From: an uncultured Chloroflexota bacterium
GTDB taxonomy: Bacteria; Chloroflexota; UBA11872
DNA length: 54,808 nt
Assembly: GCA_964522375.1 (NCBI GenBank)
Contig: CAZFVB010000004.1
Coordinates: 24,528-79,335 of the forward strand
Direction of reading: 5' to 3'
The translations under genes and the position numbers were made by a program. The first letter of the stretch is position 1; the number at the start of each line of letters is the position of its first letter. Shown piece after piece: positions 9,961 to 48,157 of the stretch. Under the pieces are notes generated by a model, which searched no databases, was not told where the DNA came from, and was given only the letters and a program-made list of their open reading frames with translations.

Positions 9961-10278
9961 ATGGGCTCCAGAAGGCGCATTCTGTTTACCTGCCGCTTGC
10001 GTCTCAGTACTGCCGTCTTATAGCTTAAACTTCTCAATCCTAAGGCATTGGGGTCGATCAAGTTCGATTCATAGGGTCCCCTCTCTCGTCCTTGGTCGCT
10101 GTGGTCTTGGCCTCCAATTTGTTCTCAGCCGCATGGCGATAGCCTTCTGTTTAGCGCGTAGAATTGTTATCGTGATGTGATCACGGCCTTGGCTTTTCCT
10201 ATAGTCAAGCCCAACAACTCCAAGCCGATTTTGTTCTTGAGTTGTGCCCTGCCCCAATGGGATGCAAGGAAGGAAACC

Positions 10279-14423: not shown

Positions 14424-14508
14424 TGGGCCAGCATACAGCCAAGGACGATGGGCCTCGTTCAAAGAAGGTGCTCAGCGTTATAATCAACTTTTAGCCAGAT
14501 TTGGATCG

Positions 14509-34036: not shown

Positions 34037-34975
34037 ATGACTGGTCGAGGCCCACATTGGCACGGTGTACTACCGGCCACTCTATGTCCCTTCAAACAAG
34101 ATCTCTCAATCGATGAGGTCGAACTCGCCCGATACACGCAATGGCTCTGCGGCCATGACGGCATCCGAGGCCTCGTTTGTAATGGCCACACAGGTGAATG
34201 CGGATCCCTGTTGCCCGAAGAACGAGCCGATGTAACGCGCATTATGGCCGAAGCCGCCAATGGTGCTGTTCCAGTCATAAGTGGGATTACGGCGGAGGGA
34301 ACCGCAGAAGCTGTTCGCCTAGCCGAGCACGCCCAAGATGCTGGCGCTACGGGCATCCTTGTGATGCCACCCCACATGTGGCTGCGTTTCGGCCGACAAC
34401 CCGATGCCGCGTACCACTACTTTAAGGACATTGCGGCTTCGACTGACCTGGACATCATCGTGCACCAGTACCCATTGTGGACAAAAGCACACTACTACAC
34501 AGAAGAATTGCTAAAGATTTGCACCCTCGACGAAGTCGTAGCTGTAAAAAATGGGGATCGAGACCTGGCACGCTACGAGTTCAACGTCAGGGCTATGCGA
34601 AAAGAAGCTCCGGACGTCGCGATTCTAAGTTGTCACGACGAATACCTAATGGCCACCTTGCTCGTCGGAGCTGATGGAGGCCTCGTCGGATTCGCTGGCT
34701 TCGTGCCTGAACTCATCACCGCGCTCGTGAAGGCCTGCCTAAGTGGGAATTATCCGGAAGCCCGGAATGTTCAAGATCGTATCTTTCCGCTGACTCAAGC
34801 CGTGTATCGACTCGGTGAACCATCTGCCACTGCCCACGCACGAATGAAAGAGGCCATGGTGATGCTTGGTCGGCTTCCGAACGCCATCACGCGGCCTCCA
34901 GTGATCGCTATGGACGACGAGGAACGGGCAACCATCAGAGATTGGCTCGAACAAGCTGGCATGTTGGAAGGCTAG
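34037..34975 (+). CDS. Dihydrodipicolinate-synthase (DapA/NAL) family lyase/aldolase
   Basis: NGHTGE, conserved Tyr region (VHQYP) and Schiff-base Lys (VAVKNGD). Confidence 0.9.
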   Translation: MTGRGPHWHGVLPATLCPFKQDLSIDEVELARYTQWLCGHDGIRGLVCNGHTGECGSLLPEERADVTRIMAEAANGAVPVISGITAEGTAEAVRLAEHAQDAGATGILVMPPHMWLRFGRQPDAAYHYFKDIAASTDLDIIVHQYPLWTKAHYYTEELLKICTLDEVVAVKNGDRDLARYEFNVRAMRKEAPDVAILSCHDEYLMATLLVGADGGLVGFAGFVPELITALVKACLSGNYPEARNVQDRIFPLTQAVYRLGEPSATAHARMKEAMVMLGRLPNAITRPPVIAMDDEERATIRDWLEQAGMLEG

Positions 34976-34999: not shown

Positions 35000-36844
35000 T
35001 CACCGATAAGCCCGTGCCTGCATTTCAAACAAGTGCGCGTACTGCCTTCCGAGTTCGATGAGATCTTGATGGGTTCCATGTTCAATATCGCGACCCTCAT
35101 CAAGCACAAGGATCTGGTCAGCCATTCGGACCGTTGTAAAACGATGCGAGATTAGAATCGCCATCTTGTCTTCAGCCAGTGCACGAAATTGCTCAAAAAC
35201 CTCATGCTCGCTCTGCACGTCGAGTGACGACGTTGGTTCGTCGAGAACCAACATCTGGGCATCACGCATAAAGCCCCTCGCCAACGCAATCTTTTGCCAC
35301 TGGCCAATCGAAAGGTTTACGCCTCCACGGAACCATCGGCCTAATTGGGTGGCGTACCCCTTGGGAAGGTCCGTAATGACATCTGCGGCCCCGCTACGCG
35401 CCGCCGCATGTTGGACTCGAGTCAGATCGTCGATATCAGGCAACGATCCATACCCGATGTTGGTCTGGGCCGTCTCCTGATACTTCCCATAATCCTGGAA
35501 AATTACACCGATTTGCGTCCGGAGGTCATCGACGTCATAGTCGCGGATATCGAGTCCATCGATCAGGATCTGGCCAGCGTCCGCATCATAGAATCGGGAA
35601 ATGAGTTTCACTAAAGTAGTCTTGCCTGCGCCATTAGCCCCGACAAGGGCTACGGATTCACCCGGTGCAATCGTAAAGGAGACGTCCCGCAAGACAGGGG
35701 CGTTGGTTCCTGGGTAACTGAAGGTCACATTCCGAAACTCGAGACCTGTAGCCAGTGGTCGATTAAGCTTTTTACCTCCCGGGCGAGCCTGTATGCGGGG
35801 TTGAAATTCCAGAAACTCGAAAAAATTGTTTACGAAAAGGCCGCGTTCGTAAATACGCGTAACACCCTGTAAGAGTTGGTTGCTCGCATCAACGGTCTGT
35901 TGATACGCCACGTAATACGTTCCCAGCGCCCCAATGCGAAGAAAGCCCTGAACCACCTGGTACGCCACAAAGGTAAAGACACCCGCGCTCGACACGGCTC
36001 CTATACCTTGGAGGAAGGCAGTCGCTCGGCTACTCCGAAGCGTAAGACTTCGGTTTTCTCGAAAGAACTTTTCGAATGTTTTTCGATATACCCGGATTAA
36101 GTGTCGGCCAAGACCAAAGATTCTGAGTTCCTTGATGTAATCATCGTTAGTGATCAGCCATCGGAAATACCCGAGCTTCCGAACTTCAGGTGACCGCCAC
36201 GTCTGGAGACGAAAACGCTCCCGCCCGTACTTGATCTCCACAAGAAGTGCTGGCGTGGTGGTCACGAGCACCACCAGGACAATCCACCACGAAATCGAAA
36301 AAAGAACCACCGCCAGCGTCAACAAGGCTATTGCTTGTTGCACCACACCAAAAGATTCCGAGACGATTTGCATGGGGCCCTCGCGGGCTTCGCGTTGTGC
36401 GTTTTCCAACCGGTCATAGAAATCCGAATTCTCGAAATAGGAGATATCCAGCTCTTCTGATTTCTCGAGGATCATGAGATTTGTCCGATTGCTAAAGAGA
36501 TCACCGAGTATCGAGCTGACTGCTCCACGGCCGGCGCGAAGCAGGAATGCCGCAAGAACCACAGCTGCCTGAATCCCTACCAGCAGCGCAACACGATCAA
36601 ATGATCCTCCTCCAACACGAATGGCATCATCGACGGCCGTCAGGACAGCGCCTAACAGATATGCCGTCGCCGCAGGCGCAAAGGCACTGGCGACAGTAAA
36701 TCCGAGCAGCAGACCTGTGAGCTTCGGACTTGTCGTCCACACAAGACGGAATACACGGAGCGCGTTGAAAAACGCTTCATTTGCGCGAGCCACCGTAAAT
36801 TCGGCCTGATCAGTCATGCCGCCGCGATGCATGTAATCCACCAC
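35000..36844 (-). CDS. ABC exporter, fused permease/ATPase
   Basis: GANGAGKT, LSIGQWQK and LVLDEPTS motifs, N-terminal TM domain. Start may be ATG 36817. Confidence 0.92.
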   Translation of the reverse strand: MVDYMHRGGMTDQAEFTVARANEAFFNALRVFRLVWTTSPKLTGLLLGFTVASAFAPAATAYLLGAVLTAVDDAIRVGGGSFDRVALLVGIQAAVVLAAFLLRAGRGAVSSILGDLFSNRTNLMILEKSEELDISYFENSDFYDRLENAQREAREGPMQIVSESFGVVQQAIALLTLAVVLFSISWWIVLVVLVTTTPALLVEIKYGRERFRLQTWRSPEVRKLGYFRWLITNDDYIKELRIFGLGRHLIRVYRKTFEKFFRENRSLTLRSSRATAFLQGIGAVSSAGVFTFVAYQVVQGFLRIGALGTYYVAYQQTVDASNQLLQGVTRIYERGLFVNNFFEFLEFQPRIQARPGGKKLNRPLATGLEFRNVTFSYPGTNAPVLRDVSFTIAPGESVALVGANGAGKTTLVKLISRFYDADAGQILIDGLDIRDYDVDDLRTQIGVIFQDYGKYQETAQTNIGYGSLPDIDDLTRVQHAAARSGAADVITDLPKGYATQLGRWFRGGVNLSIGQWQKIALARGFMRDAQMLVLDEPTSSLDVQSEHEVFEQFRALAEDKMAILISHRFTTVRMADQILVLDEGRDIEHGTHQDLIELGRQYAHLFEMQARAYR

Positions 36845-37035: not shown

Positions 37036-37677
37036 TTAGCCGGTCTCTTGTGTCCGAAGGGATGCAATGCCAACCGCAACAGTTATCACCGTAAATCCGA
37101 TCCAAGAGACAAGACCTATCACTGAGTTGTCGACCCAGACATTCACAAACAGCAGTGCTCCAGCCACCGCGAGGAGCCATCCCAAAATGACAGGGAGCAT
37201 CTTTTGGAAGGCCATCGCTATGCCCAGCGAAACAAGACCAAGGCCCCAGAGGACACCAAGCCCGGAGCCAATCTCTGTCGCAATCATCAACGTTGTTGAT
37301 CCGGCGTCAAATCCTAATCCTTCCTTCAGCGCTACATCTGGTGCTCCCTTGGTTAGCCCCCAGTTGGCAAGACTCACGCCGAGCACGGCAGGGAAAATAA
37401 CCGTTGAGGCCGACCCGAGGGCTGAGCCGGCGCCCGAGCCTGCCCGAGCTTCAAGTGCGAGCATTCCGAAGCCAACAAGTACAGCAAAGAACGACACACC
37501 CCCAAGGAGTCCAGTAAGGGATGCGGCAAACCTGTTGTCAAGAGTTGCCTGCAAAACAACGCCTGGAAGATCATCCTGGCCTGTACCCAGTAATGCAGTA
37601 CGTAGGAACCCAAAGATTAAGAGCAGTCCAATAGGACCAATCGTCAAGAACCAGCCAGCAAGCTTACGGGTACTCAC
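37036..37677 (-). CDS. Hypothetical integral membrane protein (about 6 TM helices)
   Basis: Multiple hydrophobic segments. GTG 37677 after GGGGA (the track starts at 37722). Directly downstream of grdA. Confidence 0.7.
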   Translation of the reverse strand: MSTRKLAGWFLTIGPIGLLLIFGFLRTALLGTGQDDLPGVVLQATLDNRFAASLTGLLGGVSFFAVLVGFGMLALEARAGSGAGSALGSASTVIFPAVLGVSLANWGLTKGAPDVALKEGLGFDAGSTTLMIATEIGSGLGVLWGLGLVSLGIAMAFQKMLPVILGWLLAVAGALLFVNVWVDNSVIGLVSWIGFTVITVAVGIASLRTQETG

Positions 37678-37790
37678 GTGTTTCCCCAGATCTCTCGTGA
37701 CAATGGAGTGTTTCTTGACCAAAGTCTATGACCAGCGGTCACCCCATTCAAACAGGTCGCTAGCAGACACCAATCTTGCTCACTAGGTGA

Positions 37791-38258
37791 TTACAGTTCC
37801 GTCGCCCTGGCACGAACCCCTTGTACGGCTTCCGCGATGTCCTCAACGTCCAGGGCCATTTCAGCGAGTCCGACCTCCGCTTCATAGACCGAGGGTTCAA
37901 CCTGTTGGGAAATTTGGTGCTCAGTGATGTGGTAGACGGGAAGGTTGAGATTGGATCCGGCGAGCGGACCAGCCCATGTCGGATCACCGGTCGTCATGGT
38001 TTCGGCATACAAGGTGCTGCTTTCCGGTGTTGGTGTTCCCAGGAGGACCACCGTATCGTCGCTACCTACCTGCTCCAGTGTTCTTTGAATCTCTGCCTGA
38101 CCGTCCAGGTCAAGTCCGCCAGAGGCTGTTCAGATAAAGCAGTGCGTGAGTTCGAGGATCACTTCAGCGCCCACGCTTCGGGCACATTCGCCAATGGCCG
38201 TGCCGGGCACCCCATCTCGTTCACCAAGCGCAATGATCTTTTTGCCTCGAAGGTCCAT
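37791..38258 (-). CDS. grdA: Glycine/sarcosine/betaine reductase selenoprotein A (155 aa, Sec43)
   Basis: Manual translation: MDLRGKKIIALGERDGVPGTAIGEC...THCFI-U(TGA 38130-38132)-TASGGLDL...AETMTTGDPTWAGPLAG...LPVYHITE...EMALDVEDI. Shows the GrdA CxxU motif and the GDPT(F/W)AGPLAG signature. AAGGA precedes the ATG. The track shows only the last 86 aa. Confidence 0.95.
38091..38124 (-). promoter_or_regulatory. SECIS-like hairpin of grdA
   Basis: After UGA: CUCUG-GCGGA-CUUGACC-[UGGAC]-GGUCAGG-CAGAG. 7-bp upper stem, 5-bp lower stem, apical loop starting 23 nt after the UGA with G at position 2. Confidence 0.8.
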
Positions 38259-38287
38259 GTGCTGATCCTTGTTCTTTCTGCCGACCA

Positions 38288-39748
38288 CTAGAAATTCTGA
38301 TCAGGGTTAGATTCTAATATAAGCGAGAGACCATCAGACAGCTGGGTCATACGTCCAAGAAAAAGACTCCCTTTCGCGAGGAACATCACGCGTCTCAGAT
38401 CCCTATGTTTTAGCCCCTCGATTGCGTGCGCCATGTACGGGATGGCGGACGCAATATGTCCTTGCGTAGGAGAAAACCCGGGTAGGCCACGAGCCCGGAC
38501 AAACTCATCCCGGTCACTGCGGTCAATCTCACCACGAATAGCCGCTAGGCCGGCAAGCAGACGATAGTTACGCATGGCAACATCGCCGCTCCCCGAGGGT
38601 TCGGTAATGTCCGGATCATGAAGTTCCGTGGCAAAGCGATCGATGTCTGAAAACTGCAAGTCCGCGCTGGCCAGCGGCTTTGCTACGAGATGCTCCAGTA
38701 TTGCCTGTTGTGACGAGCCAGCCGCCACTGGGTGTTTCCCAATGACGTCCATACGCAGGAGGGGCGACACCCCATCATCGGCATCAAGCAGCATGGCGAC
38801 GCCTACCAGCACGTCTTCCAGAACAGGCATTTCGTGCTTAAGGTGACCTTGGAATTTCATGCCAAGCTTGGCCAGTGAAGCTCCACCAACCACGACAACC
38901 TTGGATTCAACACCTGCCGCAATGAGTGACGCGCCAAGCATCAGCGCATGTACTGGACCGCAGCAAAAAGCCTTCGTATCCGACCCTGTGGCTGTGTCGC
39001 AACCACACATTTCCGCGATGGCTTTCGCTAAGTTGCCTCCACCGCGCTGATACCGTTCACCCACAGCTTCCTCGCCACTGTTCAGCACATAATCGATCGT
39101 GGATGGATCCTCCCCGGAATCCCGAAGAAGTGACCGCAGAGCAAAAGCTCCCGTCGTCTTGCATGCAAGATTCTCCAGCAATACGGCAGCGCTCAGACTC
39201 TCGTCTTCATCGTGATCTCGGCTAATACATCCGACCAGATCGCCGTCGGGTCGAAGAAGGGGCAACGCGGTCCCCGCTGCCACCTGCTGTTGAATCGCCT
39301 TACGTGGGTGGCCAGACTCCAAGCAGGCTAGATCAGCAACTGTCACCAGGGGATTGCCCTCTAAAGACTCTCTAATCTGGGCTGCAAACACCTCCTCGAG
39401 CCACACTAAATCAAAGCGATCGGAAACCTTTAGGAGGCCAAAGAATTCATCTCCGGAAACAATCTGGCCGTGGGGATGTCCTTGTTGAGCCTCACCATCA
39501 AGATGACGGTAATACGGTCGCTTCCGATCCCAAAGTCGCTCCGGCGTCAAACTCCCTAACAAAGCACGGTGCGGCGGGTATCGAGCCGCATCCTCGAAAC
39601 TTCGAAGAGAGGCCGCGAGTTGTCCTTCGAGCGTCGCATCTTTTTGGAGTTCCCGTACTGGCTTTGATCCATATCGAACCAGGCCTGGCGTGTGCGCCAC
39701 GAAGAACCGGGCGGCCTTGATAACGGGCCGTGGCTGACTCGTACTCAA
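38288..39748 (-). CDS. grdC: Glycine/sarcosine/betaine reductase component C subunit beta (FabH/thiolase-like fold)
   Basis: HTPGLVRYG, HDEDESLSAAVLLENLACK, SGEEAVGERYQRGGGNLAKAIAE, FCCGP, GFSPTQGHIASA and KGSLFLGRMTQLSDGLS motifs. TTGA overlap with the upstream gene. Confidence 0.93.
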   Translation of the reverse strand: MSTSQPRPVIKAARFFVAHTPGLVRYGSKPVRELQKDATLEGQLAASLRSFEDAARYPPHRALLGSLTPERLWDRKRPYYRHLDGEAQQGHPHGQIVSGDEFFGLLKVSDRFDLVWLEEVFAAQIRESLEGNPLVTVADLACLESGHPRKAIQQQVAAGTALPLLRPDGDLVGCISRDHDEDESLSAAVLLENLACKTTGAFALRSLLRDSGEDPSTIDYVLNSGEEAVGERYQRGGGNLAKAIAEMCGCDTATGSDTKAFCCGPVHALMLGASLIAAGVESKVVVVGGASLAKLGMKFQGHLKHEMPVLEDVLVGVAMLLDADDGVSPLLRMDVIGKHPVAAGSSQQAILEHLVAKPLASADLQFSDIDRFATELHDPDITEPSGSGDVAMRNYRLLAGLAAIRGEIDRSDRDEFVRARGLPGFSPTQGHIASAIPYMAHAIEGLKHRDLRRVMFLAKGSLFLGRMTQLSDGLSLILESNPDQNF

Positions 39749-41049
39749 TAGTCAATTGCGCTTAGATTGTTATAGCCGTAGTGATCGTCATACCTGCGTG
39801 GGACCGGCATTCGAGCGGTCGCGGGCATCATTTGTTTTCGCATGGGACCATCCAGCCCACTCCCACCCGGCATTTCCTGCAATCCAATCACGCGCTTCAT
39901 CTCCGGAGCTTCCGGGAATTCCTGAACAGCCGCCTGGTAAAACCCGGTGCTCACAATCGCGTCCGCTTCAGGAATGGGCTCGAGCATGGTCGGCGCTCCG
40001 TCATAGGAATTATCTTCACTGGTGAGGAAGACGGTCTTAATGCCCATATCTTCACAGGCCTCGATCGTACGAATGATTTCGATAAATTCATTTCCACCAG
40101 CATCCCATGTCATTAAAGCCCCGTCGGCTCCCAGCATCTTCGCCAACTTGGCTGCCTGCTTGCCAACCAACTCCTTTTCAGCCCACGTTGTCCACTCCGT
40201 ACGAACAACGACCACCCCCAGAAAATCAATATCCTGTCCATGCCGACGGCACAGGTCGAAAAGCACAGGATTGTTTGACATGGTCCATGAGGTCGCAAAT
40301 CCCGTTCGATATGGACCGGTGACCGCCCCATCCAAGATCTCGTTGGGATGCATGAGCCATGGTGGGTCCAGGTACCCACGCCCATAGGTCGCGTTGCCAA
40401 ATGTCGCCGCCGACCCCGACATAGCCTGGGGTGAATGCAACCCCATGAGATATGCGACTTTTGGCAGGTTACTGCTGACCTGGGAAAGCTCAAACACCTC
40501 TGTGTCCGGAGGATCGAGATCTATGACGGCCTCTGCCAGCAGGTCGCTCACGGTGAGGGTCGCTCCATGAATAACTTGATTTTTCTCGTGGATAGGAAGC
40601 GAAGATTTGGGCTCAACTACCAGCCCAAGATTCACCAGGGATCCGTATGGCATCACATCAGCCCACGGCCCCACCATATCGAGAAACATAAACACGTGGT
40701 CATGGCCGGAGTCATGCCATCCAACACTTGATATCTCGACCAGAGCCATATTTGTGAGCCGATGCGTGCGACCACGACCAACCATTTGAGCCGGGCGCCC
40801 ACACATTCCTGGATATACCTGGCCCGGCCCGTCAACTTTCACCATAGGCTCAACTACATCCCGAACAGGCCACAGACGCACGGCTTCCCCAGGCATGGCG
40901 ACTTCCAGATCGACACTCTCAATCAACCCGTCTGACATAAGCGTACGAAGCAGTCCTTCCCGATCTACCGTCAGCACTCCGTCGCGCCAGGCGGTGGCCG
41001 ACCCAAAAACCACCTCCCTAACTGGAAAACGACCGACGTCAAGACGCAT
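39745..41049 (-). CDS. Glycine/sarcosine/betaine reductase component B proprotein (GrdE/GrdG/GrdI family)
   Basis: MRLDVG..., PVRDVVEPMVKVDGPG, PNEILDGA...NNPV, GQDIDFLGVVV, KMLGADG and GIKTV motifs. The start overlaps the grdB stop by 11 nt. Confidence 0.9.
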   Translation of the reverse strand: MRLDVGRFPVREVVFGSATAWRDGVLTVDREGLLRTLMSDGLIESVDLEVAMPGEAVRLWPVRDVVEPMVKVDGPGQVYPGMCGRPAQMVGRGRTHRLTNMALVEISSVGWHDSGHDHVFMFLDMVGPWADVMPYGSLVNLGLVVEPKSSLPIHEKNQVIHGATLTVSDLLAEAVIDLDPPDTEVFELSQVSSNLPKVAYLMGLHSPQAMSGSAATFGNATYGRGYLDPPWLMHPNEILDGAVTGPYRTGFATSWTMSNNPVLFDLCRRHGQDIDFLGVVVVRTEWTTWAEKELVGKQAAKLAKMLGADGALMTWDAGGNEFIEIIRTIEACEDMGIKTVFLTSEDNSYDGAPTMLEPIPEADAIVSTGFYQAAVQEFPEAPEMKRVIGLQEMPGGSGLDGPMRKQMMPATARMPVPRRYDDHYGYNNLSAIDY

Positions 41050-42382
41050 GACTTGCATCCGTATTAGTCGGCAGCGCCTCGGTATCAGGATCAAACAGCG
41101 TCGGTTCAGTCACGGACGTTTCCAGTGCGCGCAGTGCGGCGCTTGTGATCTTCACCCCATAGGAAAAATCATCATCGGCACTTAGTTCAGGATTTCCACA
41201 GACATGCTCGATCCGACACCCCCGTACCACGCGACTCTGACCCGTAACCATCGGCAAACCGTGGATTGCTGAAATCATTGCCACAGGGATACCAGCTCGC
41301 TCGATCTCCTTCGCTATCGTTGCACCGCAACGATTACAGGTTCCTCAGGTTGCGACGAGCAGCACGCCATCGACCTTACCTTCCTGCAGTTCCCGGGCAA
41401 TACCTTGGCCGAGCACCTTGGCTTGAGCCACAGGGGTCCCGGTTCCGGCCGTGGTGAAGATTGAATCGTAAATCCTCCCAATCTTGCCTTCGCTCTCCAA
41501 CAGCCGGGCTTGCGCGAGTGGCAGGACATAGTTTGGGTTCTCATTAACAAGGCCGTTGAAGTAGCCGCCGTGAAAGGCCTCCCACCGCACGCGCTCAAGG
41601 GAATCGATGCCATCGACCGAGTGCCGGTAGTAGTGTTGGGAGTGACCGTTGGTGGCGCCATGTGGATTTCCCTTCGGGATCAATCCGCCGCTGCTGACCA
41701 GGCCAATCGTGGCGCTCGCAACGCTCGCCACCGGTGGAGCCGGCGTGACCTCTTCAGGTGTTCGGTAGGGGATCTCGGTCTCGAACGGATCACCTCGCAA
41801 TTTGGCCATGAGCATGTTGGTGGCTCTCTCGCTCCCCGGACGTTGACGCACCCAGGGCCGACGTTCTCGAGTTGGGATATACCCGTCCATTTCAGCCGGT
41901 CCCCGGCCCTCGCCAGTGCCAAGTTTGTACGCCAGTTTCCACATCGCACTAAGCGCCCGCGCCATGTCGGCTGCCGTTTCTTCAGTTCGGATAGCAAGAA
42001 CACCGCTGCGGTATATGCTCAAACCCGGATTCTCGGGATGCATGCCAGTGACAGTCGGAATTTCAAGCTTGGCAGCCACGTGGCTCACGTGGCTACAGGC
42101 CAGGCCATAGCGGCCGGACCCAAAGGCAGGACCCGCAACCACAACGTCAGGGCGTAGATCCTTCAGCATCTGAAGAAGCGACTCACTTACTTCCTCAGTT
42201 TGTTCGTTAAAGGTGTTGTCACCACAGATGATGGTCGCCTTTAGTGAAGCCGTGTCACCCATTAGATTCACAAGAGCACGGGCGGCACCTTCAGGATGTG
42301 CGCTCAGACTGAGTTCGTGGTTCGCAGCTTCCTCTCCGCCGATGCCGGCAAAGAATTGATTGAGATAATGCACGACCTGCAT
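41039..42382 (-). CDS. grdB: Glycine/sarcosine/betaine reductase selenoprotein B (GrdB/GrdF/GrdH family; 447 aa, Sec346)
   Basis: MQVVHYLNQFFAGIGGEE, AGPAFGSGRYG and HGGY motifs. VDGVLLVAT-U(TGA 41345-41347)-GTCNRCGATIAKEIERAGIPV continues in frame into track ORF 41039-41284, giving the UxxCxxC motif. Confidence 0.95.
41316..41334 (-). promoter_or_regulatory. SECIS-like hairpin of grdB
   Basis: Perfect 8-bp stem AUCGUUGC-[GGU]-GCAACGAU. The loop starts 19 nt after the UGA and begins with G. Confidence 0.85.
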
Positions 42383-42524
42383 CGATGATCTTTGCCCTTC
42401 TTTTCATCCGTAGGATTGTCAGACACCGAAACGATCTTAGGTTTTGAGCAGTTGTTGAGCAAGGTCACCCCGGCACACTGTCCACCACATGAGATAACCG
42501 TCGATCGACTCAACGTGTTCCAGT

Positions 42525-43763
42525 TCAACAGGTCCTAACGAGTTCACGATCTCGCTTTGTCAGGACTTCACAACCAGTATCGGTAACTGCAACCGTTTCA
42601 CTCACACCAACCCCCGCGCGGCCGATATCACGTGCCACGGCCCGGACATGAAACACGTGTCCCGGTTGAAGCACGGGATAGGTTTCGATCGACTTCGTAC
42701 TACGCCATCCGCGAGTTGCCATCTGTAAACCAGGCACATCAGCCCAATCAGGCTCAAATCCAAGTCCCACCGAGTACCCACGGTTGCCGTCAGAAAAGAC
42801 TTGTGTCGGTAGCTCCAGTAATGACTCAGATGCTTCCTCCGCAATCGATACCGTAGAGGCCCCCGGTCTCATCCGCGCAATTGTGCGCTCGACAGCGGTA
42901 AGGCAAGCGACATACATGTCGCCCCACAAACTGTCTGCAAAATCCCCAACAATTCCGGTTCGGATCATAGGGGCCGTGTATCGATTGACGCACGCACCCC
43001 ACTCCATGAGAACCGCATCGCCACGAGCTATACGGCGTCGACGAAAGGTGGTGTGCGGAATACCCGAATGATCTCCGATCGTGACAATCGGTTGAATGGA
43101 CATCCGCTCACTGCCGCCTCCGATGATAGCTCCGTACGCTGCGGCCGCGACCTCAGCGTCCATCGCGCCATCCACAACCGCATCGACCGCCACCTCAAAC
43201 CCCAAGCTGGTAAGTCGAGCAGCTTCTCGCAGTGATTCAATTTCCTCTCGACTTTTTACAGCCCGCACCTGTTCAACAAGGCCATGGCAATAGATAGGGT
43301 CAACCGCGATCGCCTCCTGCACGGCAACGAAGGCCTGATACCCGCCGCCGTGTTGATGATGCTCCCATCCAAGCCGTTTCTGTCCCCAGCCACGCTTACG
43401 CAACAATTCACTTAGAGCCATGATCGGATCCCCCGCCCAGGGGAAAGTAACCACGTCTTGAAGCCAGCATGACACCAGGGCGTTGTACGCCTCAAACTCA
43501 TCGACAAGAAGGAGTGGGTCTCCGTCTGTAGGAACCAGGAGGAACGCCGGCGCCGCTGACGCAAGGGTTTCATAGCCACTGAGATAAGAAATGTTTGGCA
43601 TGAACGTGCATACAAGCGCCTCGAGACCTTGCCGGGCGATATTCTGTTGCGCCCCCTGTAAACGTCTCGCGTACTCCTGCTCAGAGAAAGCAAGGTCTTT
43701 TACGCCTTCGGCGCCGGCTGGCTGTTGGAACTCGCTAAATCTCTCTGCATGTCCTGATGTCAT
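42525..43763 (-). CDS. M24-fold hydrolase of the creatinase / ectoine-hydrolase (DoeA) branch
   Basis: FSEQEYARRL N-domain, NISYLSGY, GIPHTT, EWGACVNRYTAPMIRT, GYSVGLGFEPDW and GVSETVAVT motifs. The prolidase metal ligands are only partly kept. Start taken at ATG 43763. Confidence 0.8.
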   Translation of the reverse strand: MTSGHAERFSEFQQPAGAEGVKDLAFSEQEYARRLQGAQQNIARQGLEALVCTFMPNISYLSGYETLASAAPAFLLVPTDGDPLLLVDEFEAYNALVSCWLQDVVTFPWAGDPIMALSELLRKRGWGQKRLGWEHHQHGGGYQAFVAVQEAIAVDPIYCHGLVEQVRAVKSREEIESLREAARLTSLGFEVAVDAVVDGAMDAEVAAAAYGAIIGGGSERMSIQPIVTIGDHSGIPHTTFRRRRIARGDAVLMEWGACVNRYTAPMIRTGIVGDFADSLWGDMYVACLTAVERTIARMRPGASTVSIAEEASESLLELPTQVFSDGNRGYSVGLGFEPDWADVPGLQMATRGWRSTKSIETYPVLQPGHVFHVRAVARDIGRAGVGVSETVAVTDTGCEVLTKRDRELVRTC

Positions 43764-43904
43764 GTGAAAAGCCCCGCAAACATCGCGGCTTGTCCGAAGG
43801 GAATCAAACACAAGGATTCTATGTTTGGGATCACAGCTTTAGAGCACTAGGTCAAAGGGGGATTCCAACGTCGCATTGAAAATAGCCTCATAGCTAGCTA
43901 TCAC

Positions 43905-44882
43905 TCATGCGGCGGAGACCTTGCTTACTCCCAACTCTTCCATCACGCGAAACAGGTCCTCTTTAGCCCCATCTGAAACCGCTTGGAACGGAGGGCGCAT
44001 CGGGCCTCCGTATAGACCCACATACTCAAGAGATGCCTTGACCAGGGCAGCATGATGGTAATAACCATGCGAGCCGCCATCACCTGTATACGTGCCACCG
44101 AACCACTCCATGTAAGGAACCAATGTCGAGTGCAGCCGATCTGCGGCCCCATAGTCACCCGTCTCAAGCAAGTGGAAATATTCGAGTTCAAACTCGGGCC
44201 ACCAGGTGAGTGGGGCAGAAATAAACCCTGTCGCTCCATGCATGTGGGCAACCGTCGATGTGAACCCTAGAGAGTTATCGATAAACACAAAGCGGTCGGC
44301 GTAGCGGTCCAACGCCACTACCATTTCGTCGAAGATTCCCGCACTCCCGTACTTGAGCGACACGATACCTGGGAGTTCAGCGAGTCGCTCAATCAGGGGG
44401 ATCGTCAATTTGGTGCCGAGGGTTCCTCGCCACGACTGATCGTAAATCATGATGCCCGCATTAAGGGATTCGGAAATAATGCGGTACCAGTCGTACATCC
44501 CCTGTTCATCAATTTGGTAATAACACGGTGGGGGGATCATTACGTAACGAGCACCGGTATCAATAGAACGCTGACCTAGCTCGATGACACGGTCAATGTT
44601 CAACCCGGCAACACCGGCCACGACCGGGAAGGCATCACCGCCCGTCTCTAAGGCGATCCCCAACATCTCCTGCTGCTCTTCGTCAGACAGGCTTAGGTAT
44701 TCACCCGTGCCACAGGGGGCAATGGCGAACCCATTGCCAGTGCGAACACCCGCGTCGACCAGGAACTTCAGATTCGATCGCAACGCGGTCACATTCAAGC
44801 GCAGGTCGTCGTGAAACGGCGCCATGACGAGAGCCACAGGGCCTCGAAGTTCATCCTTAATGGCCTTCATGTCCAATGCCAT
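43905..44882 (-). CDS. Dihydrodipicolinate-synthase (DapA/NAL) family lyase/aldolase
   Basis: CGTGE, IMIYD and IVSLKYG (Schiff-base Lys) motifs. Start at ATG 44882 or 44885 after GGGGG. The track start (45044) overlaps the tRNA. Confidence 0.9.
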   Translation of the reverse strand: MALDMKAIKDELRGPVALVMAPFHDDLRLNVTALRSNLKFLVDAGVRTGNGFAIAPCGTGEYLSLSDEEQQEMLGIALETGGDAFPVVAGVAGLNIDRVIELGQRSIDTGARYVMIPPPCYYQIDEQGMYDWYRIISESLNAGIMIYDQSWRGTLGTKLTIPLIERLAELPGIVSLKYGSAGIFDEMVVALDRYADRFVFIDNSLGFTSTVAHMHGATGFISAPLTWWPEFELEYFHLLETGDYGAADRLHSTLVPYMEWFGGTYTGDGGSHGYYHHAALVKASLEYVGLYGGPMRPPFQAVSDGAKEDLFRVMEELGVSKVSAA

Positions 44883-45038
44883 CATCCCCCCGTTCAATGA
44901 CCACACATTTCCGGCAAGCGCTTTGTGTTCTCTGGCCACCGGAGCCGGAGTATACAGTTCTCCGTGAATTTCTCTGCAAGCTGACCCGGAAAAGACCCGT
45001 GTGCAGTAAGGACCAATTGCTGTCAGCTCGTCAACACT

Positions 45039-45114
45039 TGGCACCCCCGGCAGGATTCGAACCTGCGACCCACGGCTTAGAAGGCCGTCGCTCTGTCCAC
45101 TGAGCTACGGGGGC
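45039..45114 (-). tRNA. tRNA-Arg (anticodon TCT), CCA encoded
   Basis: GCCCCCG-TAGCTCAGTGGACAGAGC-GACGGC-CTTCTAA-GCCGT-GGGTC-GCAGG-TTCGAAT-CCTGC-CGGGGGT-GCCA. 76-nt cloverleaf. Confidence 0.97.
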
Positions 45115-45226
45115 ATTTCTTGTACGGGATGAGTCTGGCACAGGTGACAAAGAGACCAGCGATTCTCCAAGTACAGAAATCAAAGAAAGAAGTTCTGCCA
45201 TAGAGAACGCAAAGCTTTGTTGAGAG

Positions 45227-46174
45227 CTAGCGGTACCCGTCTTCGAGACCAGATACGTCCTGACCAGGGTCCATCAATTCAACAAGGTTTGTTGAAGCAA
45301 GTTCGGCGCGCCGGCTTGCAAGGCCGTCCTCATATGTGGGCATGTCTACTTGGTAAAGAACACCTGTGGGAATACGATCCCCCCACTCAAAAGATTTCGC
45401 GATAGCAGCCTGCTGTTTCGCCACGATCTCATCCGCATTGCCTGCGTCCGCAACCCGCCCATCAAATCCTTCCTCAGACAACTTGTAGACGCGCTGGCTC
45501 CCGATGTCAGAGCCTCTAAAAAAGTCGACCGTCATCAAATCGTTATAGATAGGACACGGCTGAAGAATGTCCAGGAGGGCGGTGCCGCGATGTTGGATGG
45601 CCTGTAGGATCAAGTCCACTAGTTCAGCTTGAGCCATGGCATAACCTCGCGCTACAAAGGTGTAGCCACTGGCAATCGCTAGGCCAATAGGATTCACGTT
45701 GGACTGGATCGACGGTTCAGCCATGGACTTTGTCTGGACACCCCGTCGCATCGTTGGAGCGGCCTGACCTTTTGTTAGGCCATAGACACCATTGTTGTGG
45801 ACCAAGTACGCGAAATTGACATTCCGACGACCCGAGTTCACAAAGTATCCGGCACCAATGCCGTATCCATCACCGTCACCACCCGCCACCAAGACTTCGA
45901 GGTCCCGGTTTGCAAGCTTGACACCCGTAGCCACGTTTAAGGCTCGACCATGCAGTGTGTGCAAACCATACGTGCCAATGTAATGCGGAAGCTTTCCAGA
46001 GCAGCCAATGCCAGAAATAACTGCAATCTCATGCGGGGGACGACCAAGCTTGGCAAGCGCCTGCTTCACCGCACTAAGGATTCCAAAGTCCCCGCACCCA
46101 CCACACCAATCGGGATGGGAATCATCAACACCGAACGACTTCGCCGTCAACTCTGAAGATGCAACTACAGCCAT
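45227..46174 (-). CDS. korB: 2-oxoacid:ferredoxin oxidoreductase beta subunit
   Basis: WCGGCGD, SGIGCSG, HTLHGR and TPP motif GDGDG...NNGVYGLTKGQ. The 2-oxoglutarate specificity is inferred from the adjacent sucCD. Confidence 0.92.
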   Translation of the reverse strand: MAVVASSELTAKSFGVDDSHPDWCGGCGDFGILSAVKQALAKLGRPPHEIAVISGIGCSGKLPHYIGTYGLHTLHGRALNVATGVKLANRDLEVLVAGGDGDGYGIGAGYFVNSGRRNVNFAYLVHNNGVYGLTKGQAAPTMRRGVQTKSMAEPSIQSNVNPIGLAIASGYTFVARGYAMAQAELVDLILQAIQHRGTALLDILQPCPIYNDLMTVDFFRGSDIGSQRVYKLSEEGFDGRVADAGNADEIVAKQQAAIAKSFEWGDRIPTGVLYQVDMPTYEDGLASRRAELASTNLVELMDPGQDVSGLEDGYR

Positions 46175-46194
46175 TTGTTAATCATTTCTGCCAT

Positions 46195-48054
46195 TTATGG
46201 GTGGGACAGCACGAGCCGACCAGCGTCGGAGGTGTGATGGGTGGTTAAGGCTTCAACAACCTCGTCCTCAGAAAACGGTCGACCGTCATATTTCAGGGCT
46301 TGGCGATGCAACTGAATACCGGTCTGTTCAGCAATTAGCATTCCCAACTGGCTCATGTAATTGTCCTCGAGCACGACTGCTCGAGTTGCCGAGGCCAAGA
46401 ACTCGCTCACCGCCTTTGTCGGAAAGGGGCGGAGCATCTTGATCTGAAGGAAGTTAGCAGAAATCTTATGCTCGGACTTTAATACGTGCAACGCATCAAT
46501 AATGGGACCTCTTGTTGATCCCCAGCCTACAACGCTGATCTCGGCTTCCCTAGGGCCAATCAACTCGTACTGCCACTCGTCAGAAATTTCCTGCAGAGCC
46601 AAGTCCAGCTTGCCCATTCGTTTTTCCATCTGAGCCATTCGGTTTTCAACCTGTTCGTCAATACGCCCACGTTCAGTGTGTTCATCACTCGTAGTGACAA
46701 ACGCACCACCAGGTGTCCCAAACAACGCTCGGGGACTAATGCCAGATTCAGTAAGGGCGTGTCGTCGATAGGAGCCTTGCCCGTTAGAGCCGTTTGACCA
46801 TATTTCTCCACGATCGATTGGAAGCTCCTCTAGCCCCAGCCCATCCTCGGTTACCAAAGAATTGGCAATGAACTTGTCAGCAATCACAACCACAGGCATC
46901 TGATATCGATCCCCCCAATTGAAAGCCATATGCGTCATACGGGCAGCGTCACGCGCATCACCCGGTGCTACCACCATATGAGGGAATTCGCCATGGGCAG
47001 GTTGCAGTGCAAATCTAAGGTCTTGCTGTGCTTGGCGGGTAGGTAAGCCAGTACTTGGACCTCCACGTTGCCACAGCACAACAACAGGACCCGGAGCTTC
47101 CGTAATTGACGCAAAGCCAATGCCTTCTGCCATGAGACTGAATCCAGGCCCAGCAGTCGATGTAGATGCGCGCACGCCAGCGTGTGCCGCCCCCACGGCC
47201 ATATTCATTGAGGCGATTTCGTCTTCGGCCTGAAGGACCACGATGGGATAGTCGCCTTGATGCTGTTCCAGCATGACGCTTTCATCGGAAGCAGGAGCGA
47301 TTGGGTAATACGTTTGAAAGACACATCCAGCATGGAGCTTTGCAATGCCAACCGCATCAACACCCTTGATCAGCATGTGCTTCTTGCGGTCTGGCTGTTC
47401 CTCCAAGGAAACGTGGAAGCCCTTATCAGCATGGGCTTCGTGCGTAGCTTTCGCCGCACGCTCTAAAACAGCACGGTTGAATTCCACCATGGCCTGATGA
47501 CGGGTGGGCAATCGTTCAGCTACGACGGCCACGACATTGGCCACATCAAAGCCGAGCAGTGCGCAGCTCGCAGCGATGGGCACCATGTTCCGCATCACGT
47601 TATGCCGGCGGGCGTTGTACTCCTGTCCCATCCCCTCCACGGCCTCCTGAACAAGATCGTCATAGGCCAGTTCAAGCACGTGAATATCGTCACGTGTTAT
47701 GGCGTCCCTATCTACTTTGGCCGCCGTATCAACGACCACCACGCCACCAGGCGCCACCCGATGCAGATGGCCACCATGACGTTGGTAATCCTGGTGAGGA
47801 TCCGTCCCCAACAATGTTTCCGCATCGAGCGCAAGCAACAAATCAATCGACTCAACGTGGGAGTGAACAGGACGGTCGCTCGTCCGCACCCGATAATTAA
47901 TGTGACGACCCATGATGTTCGAGTGATATTCAATATTGGAGAACACATACAAGCCAGCCCGGACACAGGCCTTAGCAAAAACCTCGGAAGACGTATTAAC
48001 CCCACCGCTCAGCGCAGGGCCACCAATCATCCACGAGAGATTGTTTTTCACCAT
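46195..48054 (-). CDS. korA: 2-oxoacid:ferredoxin oxidoreductase alpha subunit (gamma-alpha fusion)
   Basis: EYHSNIMGRH, YPIAPAS, QAEDEIA, TSTAGPGFSLM and QRGGPSTGLPT motifs. Start taken at ATG 48054. Confidence 0.93.
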   Translation of the reverse strand: MVKNNLSWMIGGPALSGGVNTSSEVFAKACVRAGLYVFSNIEYHSNIMGRHINYRVRTSDRPVHSHVESIDLLLALDAETLLGTDPHQDYQRHGGHLHRVAPGGVVVVDTAAKVDRDAITRDDIHVLELAYDDLVQEAVEGMGQEYNARRHNVMRNMVPIAASCALLGFDVANVVAVVAERLPTRHQAMVEFNRAVLERAAKATHEAHADKGFHVSLEEQPDRKKHMLIKGVDAVGIAKLHAGCVFQTYYPIAPASDESVMLEQHQGDYPIVVLQAEDEIASMNMAVGAAHAGVRASTSTAGPGFSLMAEGIGFASITEAPGPVVVLWQRGGPSTGLPTRQAQQDLRFALQPAHGEFPHMVVAPGDARDAARMTHMAFNWGDRYQMPVVVIADKFIANSLVTEDGLGLEELPIDRGEIWSNGSNGQGSYRRHALTESGISPRALFGTPGGAFVTTSDEHTERGRIDEQVENRMAQMEKRMGKLDLALQEISDEWQYELIGPREAEISVVGWGSTRGPIIDALHVLKSEHKISANFLQIKMLRPFPTKAVSEFLASATRAVVLEDNYMSQLGMLIAEQTGIQLHRQALKYDGRPFSEDEVVEALTTHHTSDAGRLVLSHP

Positions 48055-48157
48055 CTCGCTATCCAACCAGGACAAAGCGAAGCTGCATCATGCGCACTGG
48101 TCCGTCGTGAAAACTATTGAAAGGTCTGCTCATTATGGGGCTTTGTCGACGGTTCGC

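What the first reader, a model, noticed from the sequence alone, without database searches (positions are those of the whole stretch)
37791..44882. Non-canonical selenocysteine-dependent reductase system (grdB[Sec]-grdE-like-grdC-grdA[Sec]) led by a creatinase/DoeA-like hydrolase and a DapA-family lyase
Seen: six co-oriented genes. The four grd genes are tightly coupled (11-nt overlap, TTGA overlap, 29-nt gap), with two in-frame UGAs in correct motifs, each followed by a SECIS-like hairpin. Departures from the clostridial paradigm: gene order B-E-C-A, no grdD, no trxA/trxB/grdX, a GrdE-like subunit without the cleavage-loop cysteines, and an upstream hydrolase and lyase. Known: canonical glycine/sarcosine/betaine reductases cleave the C-N bond via Sec and conserve energy as acetyl phosphate. 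Creatinase coupled to sarcosine reductase is known in Tissierella. Inference: this may be an undescribed variant that reductively cleaves an N-substituted or quaternary amine osmolyte, possibly generated by the upstream hydrolase, in a non-clostridial and probably Chloroflexota host. This is the best candidate for a novel system in the window.
Basis: partly seen in the sequence, partly recalled or inferred. Interest (0 to 1): 0.9.

Follow-up and report, generated by a model that had tools for sequence, protein, structure and literature searches.

The report
GrdD-less selenoprotein reductase operon, marine Chloroflexota
This is a real, transcribed four-gene selenium-dependent enzyme system related to the glycine/betaine reductases of anaerobes; it belongs to a widespread but unstudied branch that lacks two standard parts, so its substrate and end product are unknown, and the two upstream genes are probably just neighbours.

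Summary
Six co-oriented minus-strand genes are present, with two in-frame UGAs in the right motifs. A SECIS follows each: an Rfam SECIS_4 match in grdB and a conserved, covarying hairpin in grdA.

The four grd genes are a genuine non-canonical variant.
- The GrdB-like protein forms its own clade (SH-aLRT 100). It fails the NCBIfam cut-offs for GrdB, GrdF and GrdH. It lacks two Asp residues that the canonical GrdB, the bona fide GrdH and the GrdF-like sequence compared here all keep.
- The GrdE-like protein has no cysteine at the pyruvoyl site (Cys242), like betaine reductase GrdI.
- Its GrdC belongs to a clade that is always followed by grdA and never by grdD. That holds for 93 loci from at least seven phyla, against 40 canonical loci with grdD.
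- B/E with C-A is the only conserved neighbourhood.

The hydrolase and lyase part is not supported. The pair is deleted in the 94%-identical relative, absent from all distant loci, and occurs without grd genes next to sialidase-like genes.

The host is a planktonic marine Chloroflexota, and metatranscriptome contigs match the genes exactly.

Verdict: new variant of a known kind, moderately interesting.

The parts
41039..42382 (-). grdB-like selenoprotein B ('W-type'), 447 aa. The Sec codon is at 41345-41347 and the true stop (TGA) at 41039-41041.
   Evidence: - PF07355 374 bits; TIGR01918 412 bits (passes).
- Below the GrdB, GrdF and GrdH cut-offs: 381 vs 602, 405 vs 800, 345 vs 775.
- Fails the published GrdB and GrdF motifs.
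- Forms a clade of 21 loci with SH-aLRT 100.
41307..41344 (-). SECIS element of grdB, directly 3' of the UGA: an 8-bp stem with a GGU loop, lying inside the coding sequence.
   Evidence: Rfam RF01990 SECIS_4, 45.5 bits (gathering score 38), E 2.6e-8. Fold.
39745..41049 (-). grdE-like partner subunit of protein B, 434 aa. Unprocessed type, with no Cys at the pyruvoyl site. Overlaps grdB by 11 nt.
   Evidence: - PF09338 275 bits; GrdG 210 vs 780; FarE 131 vs 675.
- The loop reads DGAVTGPYR----TGFATSW, against the canonical DGAIVSGNC-VSACDKN.
38288..39748 (-). grdC (protein C beta subunit), 486 aa, of the clade that has no grdD next to it. TTG start in a TTGA overlap with the grdE stop.
   Evidence: - NF040746 587 bits, cut-off 450.
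- Cys262 aligns with the catalytic Cys of KAS III 1MZJ.
- Placement in the GrdC tree.
37791..38258 (-). grdA selenoprotein A, 155 aa from ATG 38258. Sec codon at 38130-38132 in the motif CFIU (CxxU).
   Evidence: - NF040748 185 bits, cut-off 130.
- TGA conserved in 208 of 208 homologues.
- An exact metatranscriptome contig at 38069-38262 spans the UGA.
38096..38114 (-). SECIS hairpin of grdA (CUUGACC-UGGAC-GGUCAGG), 18 nt after the UGA.
   Evidence: - Consensus fold of 77 distinct relatives.
- Stem pairs kept in 73-77 of 77 sequences.
- AU->GC double change in 3 sequences.
- Synonymous sites in the stem are 95-100% conserved.
42383..42524 (-). Conserved 142-nt non-coding leader upstream of grdB.
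   Evidence: It aligns in the window, L011 and L005. In L005 it follows tRNA-Arg directly, and a short stretch resembling the 3' end of the M24 gene remains. No Rfam family matches it.
42525..43763 (-). DoeA/creatinase-clade M24 hydrolase, 412 aa. Adjacent to the grd core but probably not part of it.
   Evidence: - PF00557 and PF01321; NF038259 186 bits vs 575.
- Best solved structure is ectoine hydrolase DoeA 6TWJ, E 2e-26.
- Synteny is variable.
43905..44882 (-). DapA/DHDPS-family class I aldolase or lyase, 325 aa. Adjacent to the grd core but probably not part of it.
   Evidence: - PF00701 111 bits; below every NCBIfam equivalog cut-off.
- 'SLKYG' aligns with 'GIKYA' of DHDPS 3D0C; I read this Lys as the Schiff-base residue from knowledge of the family, and 3D0C's catalytic residue was not checked.
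- A DHDPS-family gene lies next to the M24 gene in L011, L012 and L214.
45039..45114 (-). tRNA-Arg(tct). Marks the upstream boundary and limits the start of the DapA-like gene.
   Evidence: ARAGORN and Rfam tRNA, 73 bits. The same tRNA precedes grdB directly in L005.

Best explanation
The four genes grdB-like (Sec), grdE-like, grdC and grdA (Sec) encode a functional selenocysteine-dependent reductase of the glycine/sarcosine/betaine-reductase family. It belongs to an uncharacterised branch.

Inferred mechanism, by homology:
1. The substrate-specific 'protein B' is the GrdB-like protein plus an unprocessed GrdE-like partner. It binds a compound of the type X-CH2-COO-.
2. Sec346 of the GrdB-like protein attacks the methylene carbon and displaces X.
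3. The carboxymethyl group passes to Sec of GrdA (CxxU).
4. GrdC takes it over as an acetyl thioester on its thiolase-type Cys262, leaving GrdA oxidised.

Three features argue that X is not the primary or secondary amine of glycine or sarcosine. The partner subunit has no cysteine to form a pyruvoyl group. The GrdB-like protein lacks two Asp residues that are kept in the canonical GrdB, bona fide GrdH and GrdF-like sequences compared here. No grdD lies nearby.

The same features suggest that the acetyl group is not released by the classical GrdD phosphorolysis to acetyl phosphate. More probably it leaves as acetyl-CoA or acetate, or through an unlinked enzyme. The reductant is not encoded in the locus.

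The upstream M24 hydrolase and DapA-family lyase form a separate two-gene module that lies next to the operon only in this lineage.

Shown here: gene identities, Sec recoding signals, clade membership, the missing residues, synteny and transcription. Inferred: the chemistry, the class of substrate and the product.
For: - Family matches and cut-offs.
- SECIS_4 match in grdB, and a conserved, covarying grdA hairpin.
- Sec codon conserved in 208 of 208 GrdA and 137 of 137 GrdB-like sequences.
- The window's GrdB clade is monophyletic (SH-aLRT 100). It is separate from canonical GrdB and from a bona fide GrdH of Clostridium carboxidivorans, which scores 867 against a cut-off of 775.
- The window clade reads [FY]H[GAS]GY[FY]N and LPLxx. 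The canonical GrdB, the one bona fide GrdH and the one GrdF-like sequence in the alignment read HGGxD and PxD. Both published motifs also require these Asp (PMC9751293).
- The canonical GrdE Cys is at position 242 in Paraclostridium, matching the labelled C. difficile peptide in PMC9908766. The window clade and GrdI have no Cys there.
- Fourteen canonical GrdD queries (NF040747 about 600 bits) find nothing in the 54.8-kb window or in 86 related loci.
- On the GrdC tree a single branch (support 100) separates 93 GrdD-less loci from all GrdD-adjacent ones. The trait needs 3 changes, against 33 in shuffles.
- B/E with C-A is the only neighbourhood conserved across loci.
- GrdC Cys262 aligns with the KAS III catalytic Cys and is invariant in both clades.
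- Exact metatranscriptome contigs lie on grdA, the grdB/E junction, grdE and the grdB 5' end.
- On the independence of the M24 and DapA genes.
Against: - A GrdD encoded elsewhere would restore the classical end chemistry.
- Lack of the pyruvoyl cysteine is shared with betaine reductase GrdI, so an ordinary betaine-type substrate is not excluded.
- The functional meaning of the two lost Asp residues is inferred from conservation only. No structure exists for any family member.
- The M24 and DapA genes are adjacent and co-oriented in two of the three closest lineages, so a lineage-specific functional link cannot be ruled out.
- RNA evidence comes from sparse contigs in metatranscriptomes, which may contain DNA.
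Confidence: 0.6

Rival explanations
1. This is an ordinary betaine reductase, or another known Grd specificity, whose remaining parts (GrdD, thioredoxin and thioredoxin reductase) are simply encoded elsewhere in the genome. It would make trimethylamine and acetyl phosphate as in Eubacterium acidaminophilum.
For: - The GrdE-like subunit lacks Cys242 exactly as GrdI does.
- GrdA and GrdC pass their NCBIfam equivalog cut-offs.
- The UxxCxxC motif is intact.
- Betaine is abundant in seawater, where the organism lives.
- The genome could not be searched.
Against: - The GrdB-like protein scores 345 against the GrdH model's cut-off of 775, lower than against GrdF or GrdB.
- It lies in a separate clade from a bona fide GrdH.
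- GrdH keeps both Asp residues that the window clade has lost.
- In canonical systems grdD directly follows grdC in every locus long enough to show it. It never does in the 93 loci of the window's GrdC clade, which span at least seven phyla.
Confidence: 0.2
2. One reading: the DoeA/creatinase-like hydrolase, with the DapA-family lyase, converts an osmolyte such as creatine or an ectoine-like compound into the substrate of the reductase. The six genes would then form one pathway, as with creatinase and sarcosine reductase in Tissierella.
For: - All six genes are co-oriented.
- The pair precedes grdB in the window and in the 88%-identical relatives L011 and L012.
- The M24 protein has the DoeA-type replacements at two of the metal-ligand positions (E in LMEWG, and A-P in YTAPMIRT), and DoeA is its best solved relative.
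- One SAR202 locus has an M24 homologue 5 kb from grdC (L040).
Against: - The pair is missing from the 94%-identical relative. There tRNA-Arg abuts the conserved grdB leader and a stretch resembling the M24 3' end remains, which indicates deletion with the grd genes retained.
- It is absent from about 80 more distant loci.
- A 70%-identical M24 lies with a DHDPS-family gene, without grd genes, beside BNR/sialidase-like genes. In L011 and L012 a GlcNAc 2-epimerase lies upstream. Both point to amino-sugar or sialic-acid-type catabolism.
- M24 copies at 58-60% identity stand alone.
- Gaps of 142 nt and about 141 nt (94 nt with the alternative GTG start of the M24 gene) separate these genes, unlike the overlapping grd genes.
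- Sarcosine, the product of creatinase, would need the pyruvoyl group that is missing here.
Confidence: 0.1
3. The locus is a decaying or non-functional remnant of a Grd system, and the UGAs act as true stops.
For: Missing grdD, trx genes and the pyruvoyl cysteine could be read as decay.
Against: - All four ORFs are intact and overlap tightly.
- The frames continue in homology past both UGAs.
- SECIS elements are conserved, one with a compensatory change.
- The same architecture is kept at 50-65% identity across phyla.
- Transcripts are detected.
Confidence: 0.02

Closest known systems
Betaine reductase (GrdH/GrdI with GrdA, GrdC, GrdD and the thioredoxin system), Eubacterium acidaminophilum type. 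The control here is the Clostridium carboxidivorans P7 locus L181.
   Same: - Two selenoproteins (A with CxxU, B with UxxCxxC).
- A partner subunit of the Gly_reductase family without the pyruvoyl cysteine.
- A GrdC with the thiolase-type Cys.
   Different: - The GrdB-like protein is in another clade (345 bits against a cut-off of 775).
- It lacks both Asp residues kept by GrdH.
- The loop of the E-like subunit is 4-5 residues shorter.
- grdC is followed by grdA and not by grdD.
- No trx genes are nearby.
- The host is an uncultured marine planktonic Chloroflexota, not an anaerobic Firmicute.
Glycine reductase GrdABCDE of Stickland-fermenting Clostridia (Acetoanaerobium sticklandii, Clostridioides difficile).
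   Same: Homologous A, B, E and C components, Sec recoding with a coding-region SECIS, and the presumed carboxymethyl-selenoether chemistry.
   Different: - Canonical order is E-A-B-C-D with grdD; here it is B-E-C-A without grdD.
- No Cys242, so no pyruvoyl group.
- Fails TIGR01917 (381 vs 602) and the published GrdB motif.
GrdD-less Grd-type clusters of SAR202/Dehalococcoidia and soil Actinomycetota. A separate SAR202 GrdB clade is noted in the Lost City preprint 10.1101/2022.01.25.477282. Other windows of this scan also record such clusters, in unchecked AI notes.
   Same: The same GrdC clade with a grdC-grdA pair, no grdD, E-like subunits without the pyruvoyl Cys, and uncultured and probably largely aerobic hosts (no oxygen trait was tested here).
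   Different: - The window's protein B is a separate type (W).
- It keeps UxxCxxC, whereas the common SAR202 E-then-B type reads UGTSTRS and the Actinomycetota type reads UGTGTRC.
- It alone has lost the HGGxD and PxD aspartates.
Creatinase coupled to sarcosine reductase in Tissierella creatinophila (from general knowledge; not tested here).
   Same: An M24 creatinase-fold hydrolase next to Grd-type genes.
   Different: - The M24 here is closer to ectoine hydrolase DoeA than to creatinase (E 2e-26 against 1e-10).
- It is not syntenic in relatives.
- The reductase lacks the pyruvoyl group expected for sarcosine.

Membership tests
Glycine/sarcosine/betaine/D-proline reductase selenoprotein B superfamily (TIGR01918, PF07355) | Full-length match above the curated cut-off, with Sec in UxxCxxC | tested here: met
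   TIGR01918 412 bits (cut-off 65); PF07355 374 bits; VATUGTCNRCGA
Glycine reductase (GrdB/GrdE) | GrdB equivalog score (TIGR01917, at least 602) and the GrdB motif AHGGxD[QTAP]...RV[IL]PxD...TxGNxTxV (PMC9751293) | tested here: not met
   381 bits. The motif regex fails; the window reads FHGGYFNG, YVLPLAQ and FTTAGTGTPVA
Glycine reductase (GrdB/GrdE) | GrdE proprotein with Cys242, which becomes the pyruvoyl group | tested here: not met
   The aligned column is Arg in the window and Cys in 54 canonical sequences. In L120 the Cys is residue 242 (PMC9908766)
Sarcosine reductase (GrdF/GrdG) | NCBIfam NF040794 (at least 800) and NF040793 (at least 780); GrdF motif IHGGYDR...TTGTGT | tested here: not met
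   405 and 210 bits; the motif fails
Betaine reductase (GrdH/GrdI) | NCBIfam NF040795 score of at least 775 | tested here: not met
   345 bits. The control GrdH of C. carboxidivorans scores 867 and falls in a separate clade
Betaine reductase (GrdH/GrdI) | Unprocessed alpha subunit (no Cys at the cleavage site) | tested here: met
   GrdI has Phe and the window has Arg at the Cys242 column. This shared trait does not define membership.
Fluoroacetate reductase (FarE) and D-proline reductase (PrdA/PrdB) | Equivalog scores: NF053623 at least 675; TIGR04480 at least 700; TIGR04483 at least 300 | tested here: not met
   131, 36 and 70 bits
Grd protein A | GrdA equivalog with the CxxU motif | tested here: met
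   NF040748 185 bits (cut-off 130); CFIU
Grd protein C (GrdC+GrdD) | GrdC beta subunit equivalog | tested here: met
   NF040746 587 bits (cut-off 450)
Grd protein C (GrdC+GrdD) | GrdD alpha subunit (NF040747, acetyl-accepting Cys) encoded next to grdC | tested here: not met
   tblastn with 14 verified GrdD sequences found no match in the window or in 86 related loci. GrdD is present after grdC in canonical loci.
Grd protein C (GrdC+GrdD) | GrdD present anywhere in the genome | not testable with these tools
Classical Grd operon | Thioredoxin and thioredoxin reductase (and GrdX) in the locus | tested here: not met
   No Trx-family domains among the window ORFs scanned. Genome-wide presence could not be tested.
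Bacterial SECIS | Stem-loop directly 3' of the in-frame UGA | tested here: met
   grdB: Rfam SECIS_4, 45.5 bits (gathering score 38). grdA: a conserved hairpin with a compensatory pair.
Ectoine hydrolase DoeA / creatinase (for the M24 gene) | NCBIfam NF038259 (at least 575) or TIGR02993 (at least 613) | tested here: not met
   186 and 130 bits. It shares the DoeA-type replacements at two of the metal-ligand positions, and its best PDB match is DoeA 6TWJ at E 2e-26.

The most novel reading that the evidence does not exclude
The W-type protein B, together with the GrdD-less GrdC-GrdA core, may be a self-sufficient four-protein selenoenzyme. With it, aerobic or microaerobic marine and soil bacteria (SAR202 and other Chloroflexota, Entotheonella, Rokubacteria) would reductively cleave an abundant carboxymethyl compound with a non-amine or onium leaving group. 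Candidates are betaine analogues, dimethylsulfonioacetate and arsenobetaine. The acetyl group would be delivered directly to CoA from the thiolase-type Cys of GrdC. This would be an assimilatory route distinct from Stickland-type energy conservation, and a previously unrecognised selenium demand in the ocean.
Probability: 0.15. Interest if true: 0.85.

Novelty: new variant of a known kind. Interest (0 to 1): 0.6.

Why it matters
Grd-type reductases are textbook enzymes of strictly anaerobic amino-acid fermenters. Here a complete, Sec-dependent relative sits in a planktonic marine Chloroflexota. Its relatives occur in several hundred species genomes of SAR202, Entotheonella, Rokubacteria, Acidobacteriota and others.

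The branch lacks the subunit that makes acetyl phosphate. It also lacks the pyruvoyl cofactor and the two aspartates kept in the canonical GrdB, GrdH and GrdF-like sequences compared here. Both the substrate and the product are therefore open questions.

Solving them could reveal a new sink for a marine osmolyte or a related carboxymethyl compound. It could also explain part of the selenium requirement of abundant uncultured bacteria.

In practice, both selenoprotein genes are split by standard gene callers (see the calls in L005, L006 and L008), so the system is under-annotated.

Tried and rejected
2. An exact-sequence look-up of the window's own GrdC found no record.
3. Solved structures: none for the GrdB-like or GrdE-like proteins, so residues could not be mapped to an active site. 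I did not run structure prediction, because no tool here measures distances in a model.
4. Thermodynamic tests of the two SECIS hairpins were not significant (z -0.25 and -0.41). The evidence rests on the Rfam model and on comparative conservation instead.
5. I considered that the Asp-to-aromatic change marks an 'aromatic box' for a quaternary amine, as in betaine binding. I rejected it as evidence because bona fide GrdH keeps the Asp residues.
6. 2-oxoacid:ferredoxin oxidoreductase as a dedicated electron donor. It is adjacent in the window, L005 and L006 only, not in the other roughly 80 loci, so this is probably coincidence.
7. DUF362, the 228-aa membrane protein and the ABC exporter as partners. 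They are conserved only within the closest lineage.
8. The promoter and terminator scan was uninformative, with fewer sites than in shuffles.
9. The Rfam E-value scan of the conserved grdB leader found no riboswitch.
10. Literature searches for a described GrdD-less system found only the Lost City preprint's remark on a separate SAR202 GrdB clade.

Full report
**Observation.** The region 37791-44882 holds six co-oriented minus-strand genes.
- Pfam and NCBIfam identify a DHDPS/DapA-family protein at 43905-44882. Its longer ORF would overlap tRNA-Arg(tct) at 45039-45114.
- The next gene is an M24/Creatinase_N hydrolase at 42525-43763.
- Then come a GrdB-family selenoprotein (41039-42382), a Gly_reductase-family (GrdE-like) protein (39745-41049), GrdC (38288-39748) and GrdA (37791-38258).
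- Both in-frame UGAs sit in the expected motifs: VATUGTCNRCGA at 41345-41347 and HCFIUTASGG at 38130-38132.

**Recoding signals.**
- The 38 bases after the grdB UGA match Rfam SECIS_4 above its gathering score (45.5 against 38, E 2.6e-8).
- The grdA hairpin (38096-38114) is not thermodynamically exceptional.
- In 77 distinct relatives its stem is nevertheless kept in 73-77 sequences per pair. Synonymous third positions in the stem are 95-100% identical, against 40-65% outside it. One pair changes AU to GC on both sides in three sequences.
- TGA is present at the Sec position in all 208 GrdA homologues collected, and Sec is at the GrdB site in all 137 GrdB-like sequences aligned.

**Where the proteins belong.**
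- GrdA and GrdC pass their NCBIfam equivalog cut-offs.
- The GrdB-like protein passes only the broad subfamily model. It falls far below GrdB (381 vs 602), GrdF (405 vs 800) and GrdH (345 vs 775).
- The GrdE-like protein is far below GrdG (210 vs 780), FarE (131 vs 675) and PrdA (36 vs 700).
- It fails both published sequence motifs for GrdB and GrdF (PMC9751293).

To obtain references I scanned species genomes for the canonical GrdA motif CFVUTAAGAMD. That scan returned 120 loci. These include E-A-B-C-D operons of Firmicutes and a bona fide GrdH/GrdI locus of Clostridium carboxidivorans P7, scoring 867 against a cut-off of 775.
- In a tree of 126 GrdB-like sequences, the window's type (21 loci) is one clade with SH-aLRT 100. 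It is separate from canonical GrdB (98), GrdH, a GrdF-like sequence and three other environmental types.
- The canonical GrdB, the GrdH and the GrdF-like sequences read HGGxD and PxD.
- The window clade reads [FY]H[GAS]GY[FY]N and LPLxx, so both aspartates are gone.
- The UxxCxxC motif is retained.

**The partner subunit.**
- Canonical GrdE reads DGAIVSGNC-VSACDKN.
- In Paraclostridium this Cys is residue 242, the residue shown by mass spectrometry to become the pyruvoyl group in C. difficile (PMC9908766).
- The window protein reads DGAVTGPYR----TGFATSW, with Arg in that column and a shorter loop.
- None of the GrdE-like proteins from the 86 related loci has Cys there.
- GrdI, the partner of bona fide GrdH, has Phe.
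- The subunit is therefore of the unprocessed type, a trait shared with betaine reductase. This argues against glycine or sarcosine as substrate.

**GrdD and the neighbourhood.** A GrdC profile found relatives in 416 species genomes. The best 80 are Dehalococcoidia/SAR202, Entotheonella (Tectimicrobiota), Rokubacteria, Methylomirabilota, Acidobacteriota, Binatota, Nitrospinota and others.
- Across 86 non-redundant loci, grdC is almost always followed directly by grdA.
- A B/E pair lies nearby in variable order. B-E-C-A, as in the window, is one of the common layouts.
- All-against-all clustering of flanking ORFs found no other recurrent family. What recurs is housekeeping synteny within sublineages.
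- I verified GrdD in canonical loci (NF040747 about 600 bits) and searched with 14 such sequences. There were no matches in the window or in the 86 loci, apart from one weak match (25% identity, probably PlsX).
- On a GrdC tree a single branch with support 100 separates 93 GrdD-less loci from all GrdD-adjacent ones. Two apparent exceptions do have GrdD. The trait needs 3 changes, against 33 under shuffling.
- The Actinomycetota E-B-C-A loci fall on the GrdD-less side.
- GrdC Cys262 aligns with the catalytic Cys of KAS III (1MZJ) and is invariant in both clades. It is a plausible acetyl acceptor.

**The upstream hydrolase and lyase.**
- The M24 protein is closest to ectoine hydrolase DoeA (6TWJ, E 2e-26). 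Creatinase 1CHM scores only 1e-10.
- It shares DoeA's replacements at two of the metal-ligand positions, but it is far below the DoeA cut-offs.
- In the DapA-family protein 'SLKYG' aligns with 'GIKYA' of DHDPS 3D0C. I read this Lys as the Schiff-base residue from knowledge of the family.

Synteny argues against a link to the reductase.
- The relative with 94% GrdE identity (L005) has the same flanks (OFOR, tRNA-Arg, grdBECA, membrane protein, ABC exporter, DHDPS, DUF362) but lacks both genes. tRNA-Arg abuts the conserved grdB leader, and a short stretch resembling the M24 3' end remains. This indicates a deletion.
- The 88% relatives (L011, L012) keep the pair, with a GlcNAc 2-epimerase upstream.
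- A 70%-identical M24 lies with a DHDPS-family gene between BNR/sialidase-like genes and has no grd genes nearby.
- Copies at 58-60% identity stand alone.
- About 80 more distant grd loci lack the pair.
- The pair looks like an independent catabolic module, possibly related to amino sugars or sialic acids, that happens to adjoin the operon in this lineage.

**Host and expression.**
- SucC is at best 69% identical to a Chloroflexota MAG, then 50-60% to other Chloroflexota and Anaerolineae.
- The locus is present near-identically in seawater and marine-plankton metagenomes from at least ten studies.
- Three marine metatranscriptomes contain contigs that match with no differences. They fall on grdA (38069-38262, spanning the UGA), the grdB/grdE junction (40967-41147), grdE, the grdB 5' end and the DapA-like gene.
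- This is sparse evidence and DNA carry-over is possible, but it is consistent with transcription in situ.

**Mechanism and verdict.** The best reading is a functional Grd-family selenoenzyme of an uncharacterised branch.
- A W-type protein B cleaves an X-CH2-COO- compound. With no pyruvoyl group and no Asp pair, X is probably not a primary or secondary amine.
- It hands the carboxymethyl group to Sec-GrdA.
- GrdC then forms an acetyl thioester on Cys262.
- Release does not use an adjacent GrdD, so the product may be acetyl-CoA or acetate rather than acetyl phosphate.
- The steps after gene identification are inferred by homology.
- The main rival is an ordinary betaine-type reductase with GrdD and Trx encoded elsewhere. 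It remains possible (about 0.2).

In the searched literature only a preprint remarks on a separate SAR202 GrdB clade and 'GrdEBCA' clusters (10.1101/2022.01.25.477282). Unchecked notes from other windows of this scan describe related GrdD-less clusters. My independent tests agree with them. I rate this a new variant of a known kind: real, widespread and biochemically open, but not unique to this window.

Noticed in passing
L058, L060-L092 (for example L058:5302-6576): The commonest SAR202 GrdB type (gene order E then B, divergent from grdC-grdA) has Sec but reads UGTSTRSGA. Both cysteines of the UxxCxxC motif are replaced by Ser. Actinomycetota-type loci read UGTGTRC.
   Followed up: partly
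L008:3301-16392 (SAR202 MAG, GCA_024711665.1): Three different GrdB/GrdE pairs (one W-type and two 'X-type') surround a single grdC-grdA pair, next to an H+-pyrophosphatase gene. This resembles the several substrate-specific protein B sets of Eubacterium acidaminophilum that share one A/C core.
   Followed up: partly
L005:8302-8667 compared with window 42383-45226: The 94%-identical relative has tRNA-Arg(tct) directly before the grdB leader. A roughly 35-nt stretch there resembles the 3' end of the M24 gene. This points to a clean two-gene deletion next to a tRNA gene.
   Followed up: yes
window 34037-34975 (+) and 32625-33671 (-): A second DapA/DHDPS-family gene and a DUF362 (Fe-S) gene lie downstream of the operon. 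They are conserved with it in L005 and L011. DUF362 also lies near the grd genes in the SAR202 loci L008 and L009.
   Followed up: partly
window 37036-37722 (-): A 228-aa hydrophobic, probably membrane, protein with no Pfam match lies directly downstream of grdA, followed by an ABC exporter (35000-36844). Both are conserved only in the closest relatives.
   Followed up: partly
window 10177-11154 (+) and 12810-14462 (-): A corrinoid (B12-binding plus B12-binding_2) protein and a hydantoinase B/oxoprolinase subunit lie in the same window. Corrinoid proteins of this type serve methyltransferase systems, including betaine demethylation. No link was tested.
   Followed up: no
L214:5019-9284: A DHDPS-family gene and an M24 gene (70% identical to the window's M24) sit between two BNR/sialidase-like genes in a 3.3-Mb contig. 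This suggests a role in sialic-acid-like or glycan catabolism for this M24 subfamily.
   Followed up: partly
window GrdC residue 224 (about 39077-39079): GrdC proteins with an adjacent GrdD have an invariant Cys (38 of 38) at the column where the window has Ser. GrdD-less GrdC proteins have Ser in 52 and Cys in 23 of 95. They often have a Cys-Cys pair at 262-263, where canonical ones have Cys-Ala.
   Followed up: partly
window 45227-50166 (-): A 2-oxoacid:ferredoxin oxidoreductase (alpha and beta) and succinyl-CoA ligase lie just upstream of the tRNA. OFOR genes also lie near the grd genes in L006, but not in the other roughly 80 loci.
   Followed up: yes
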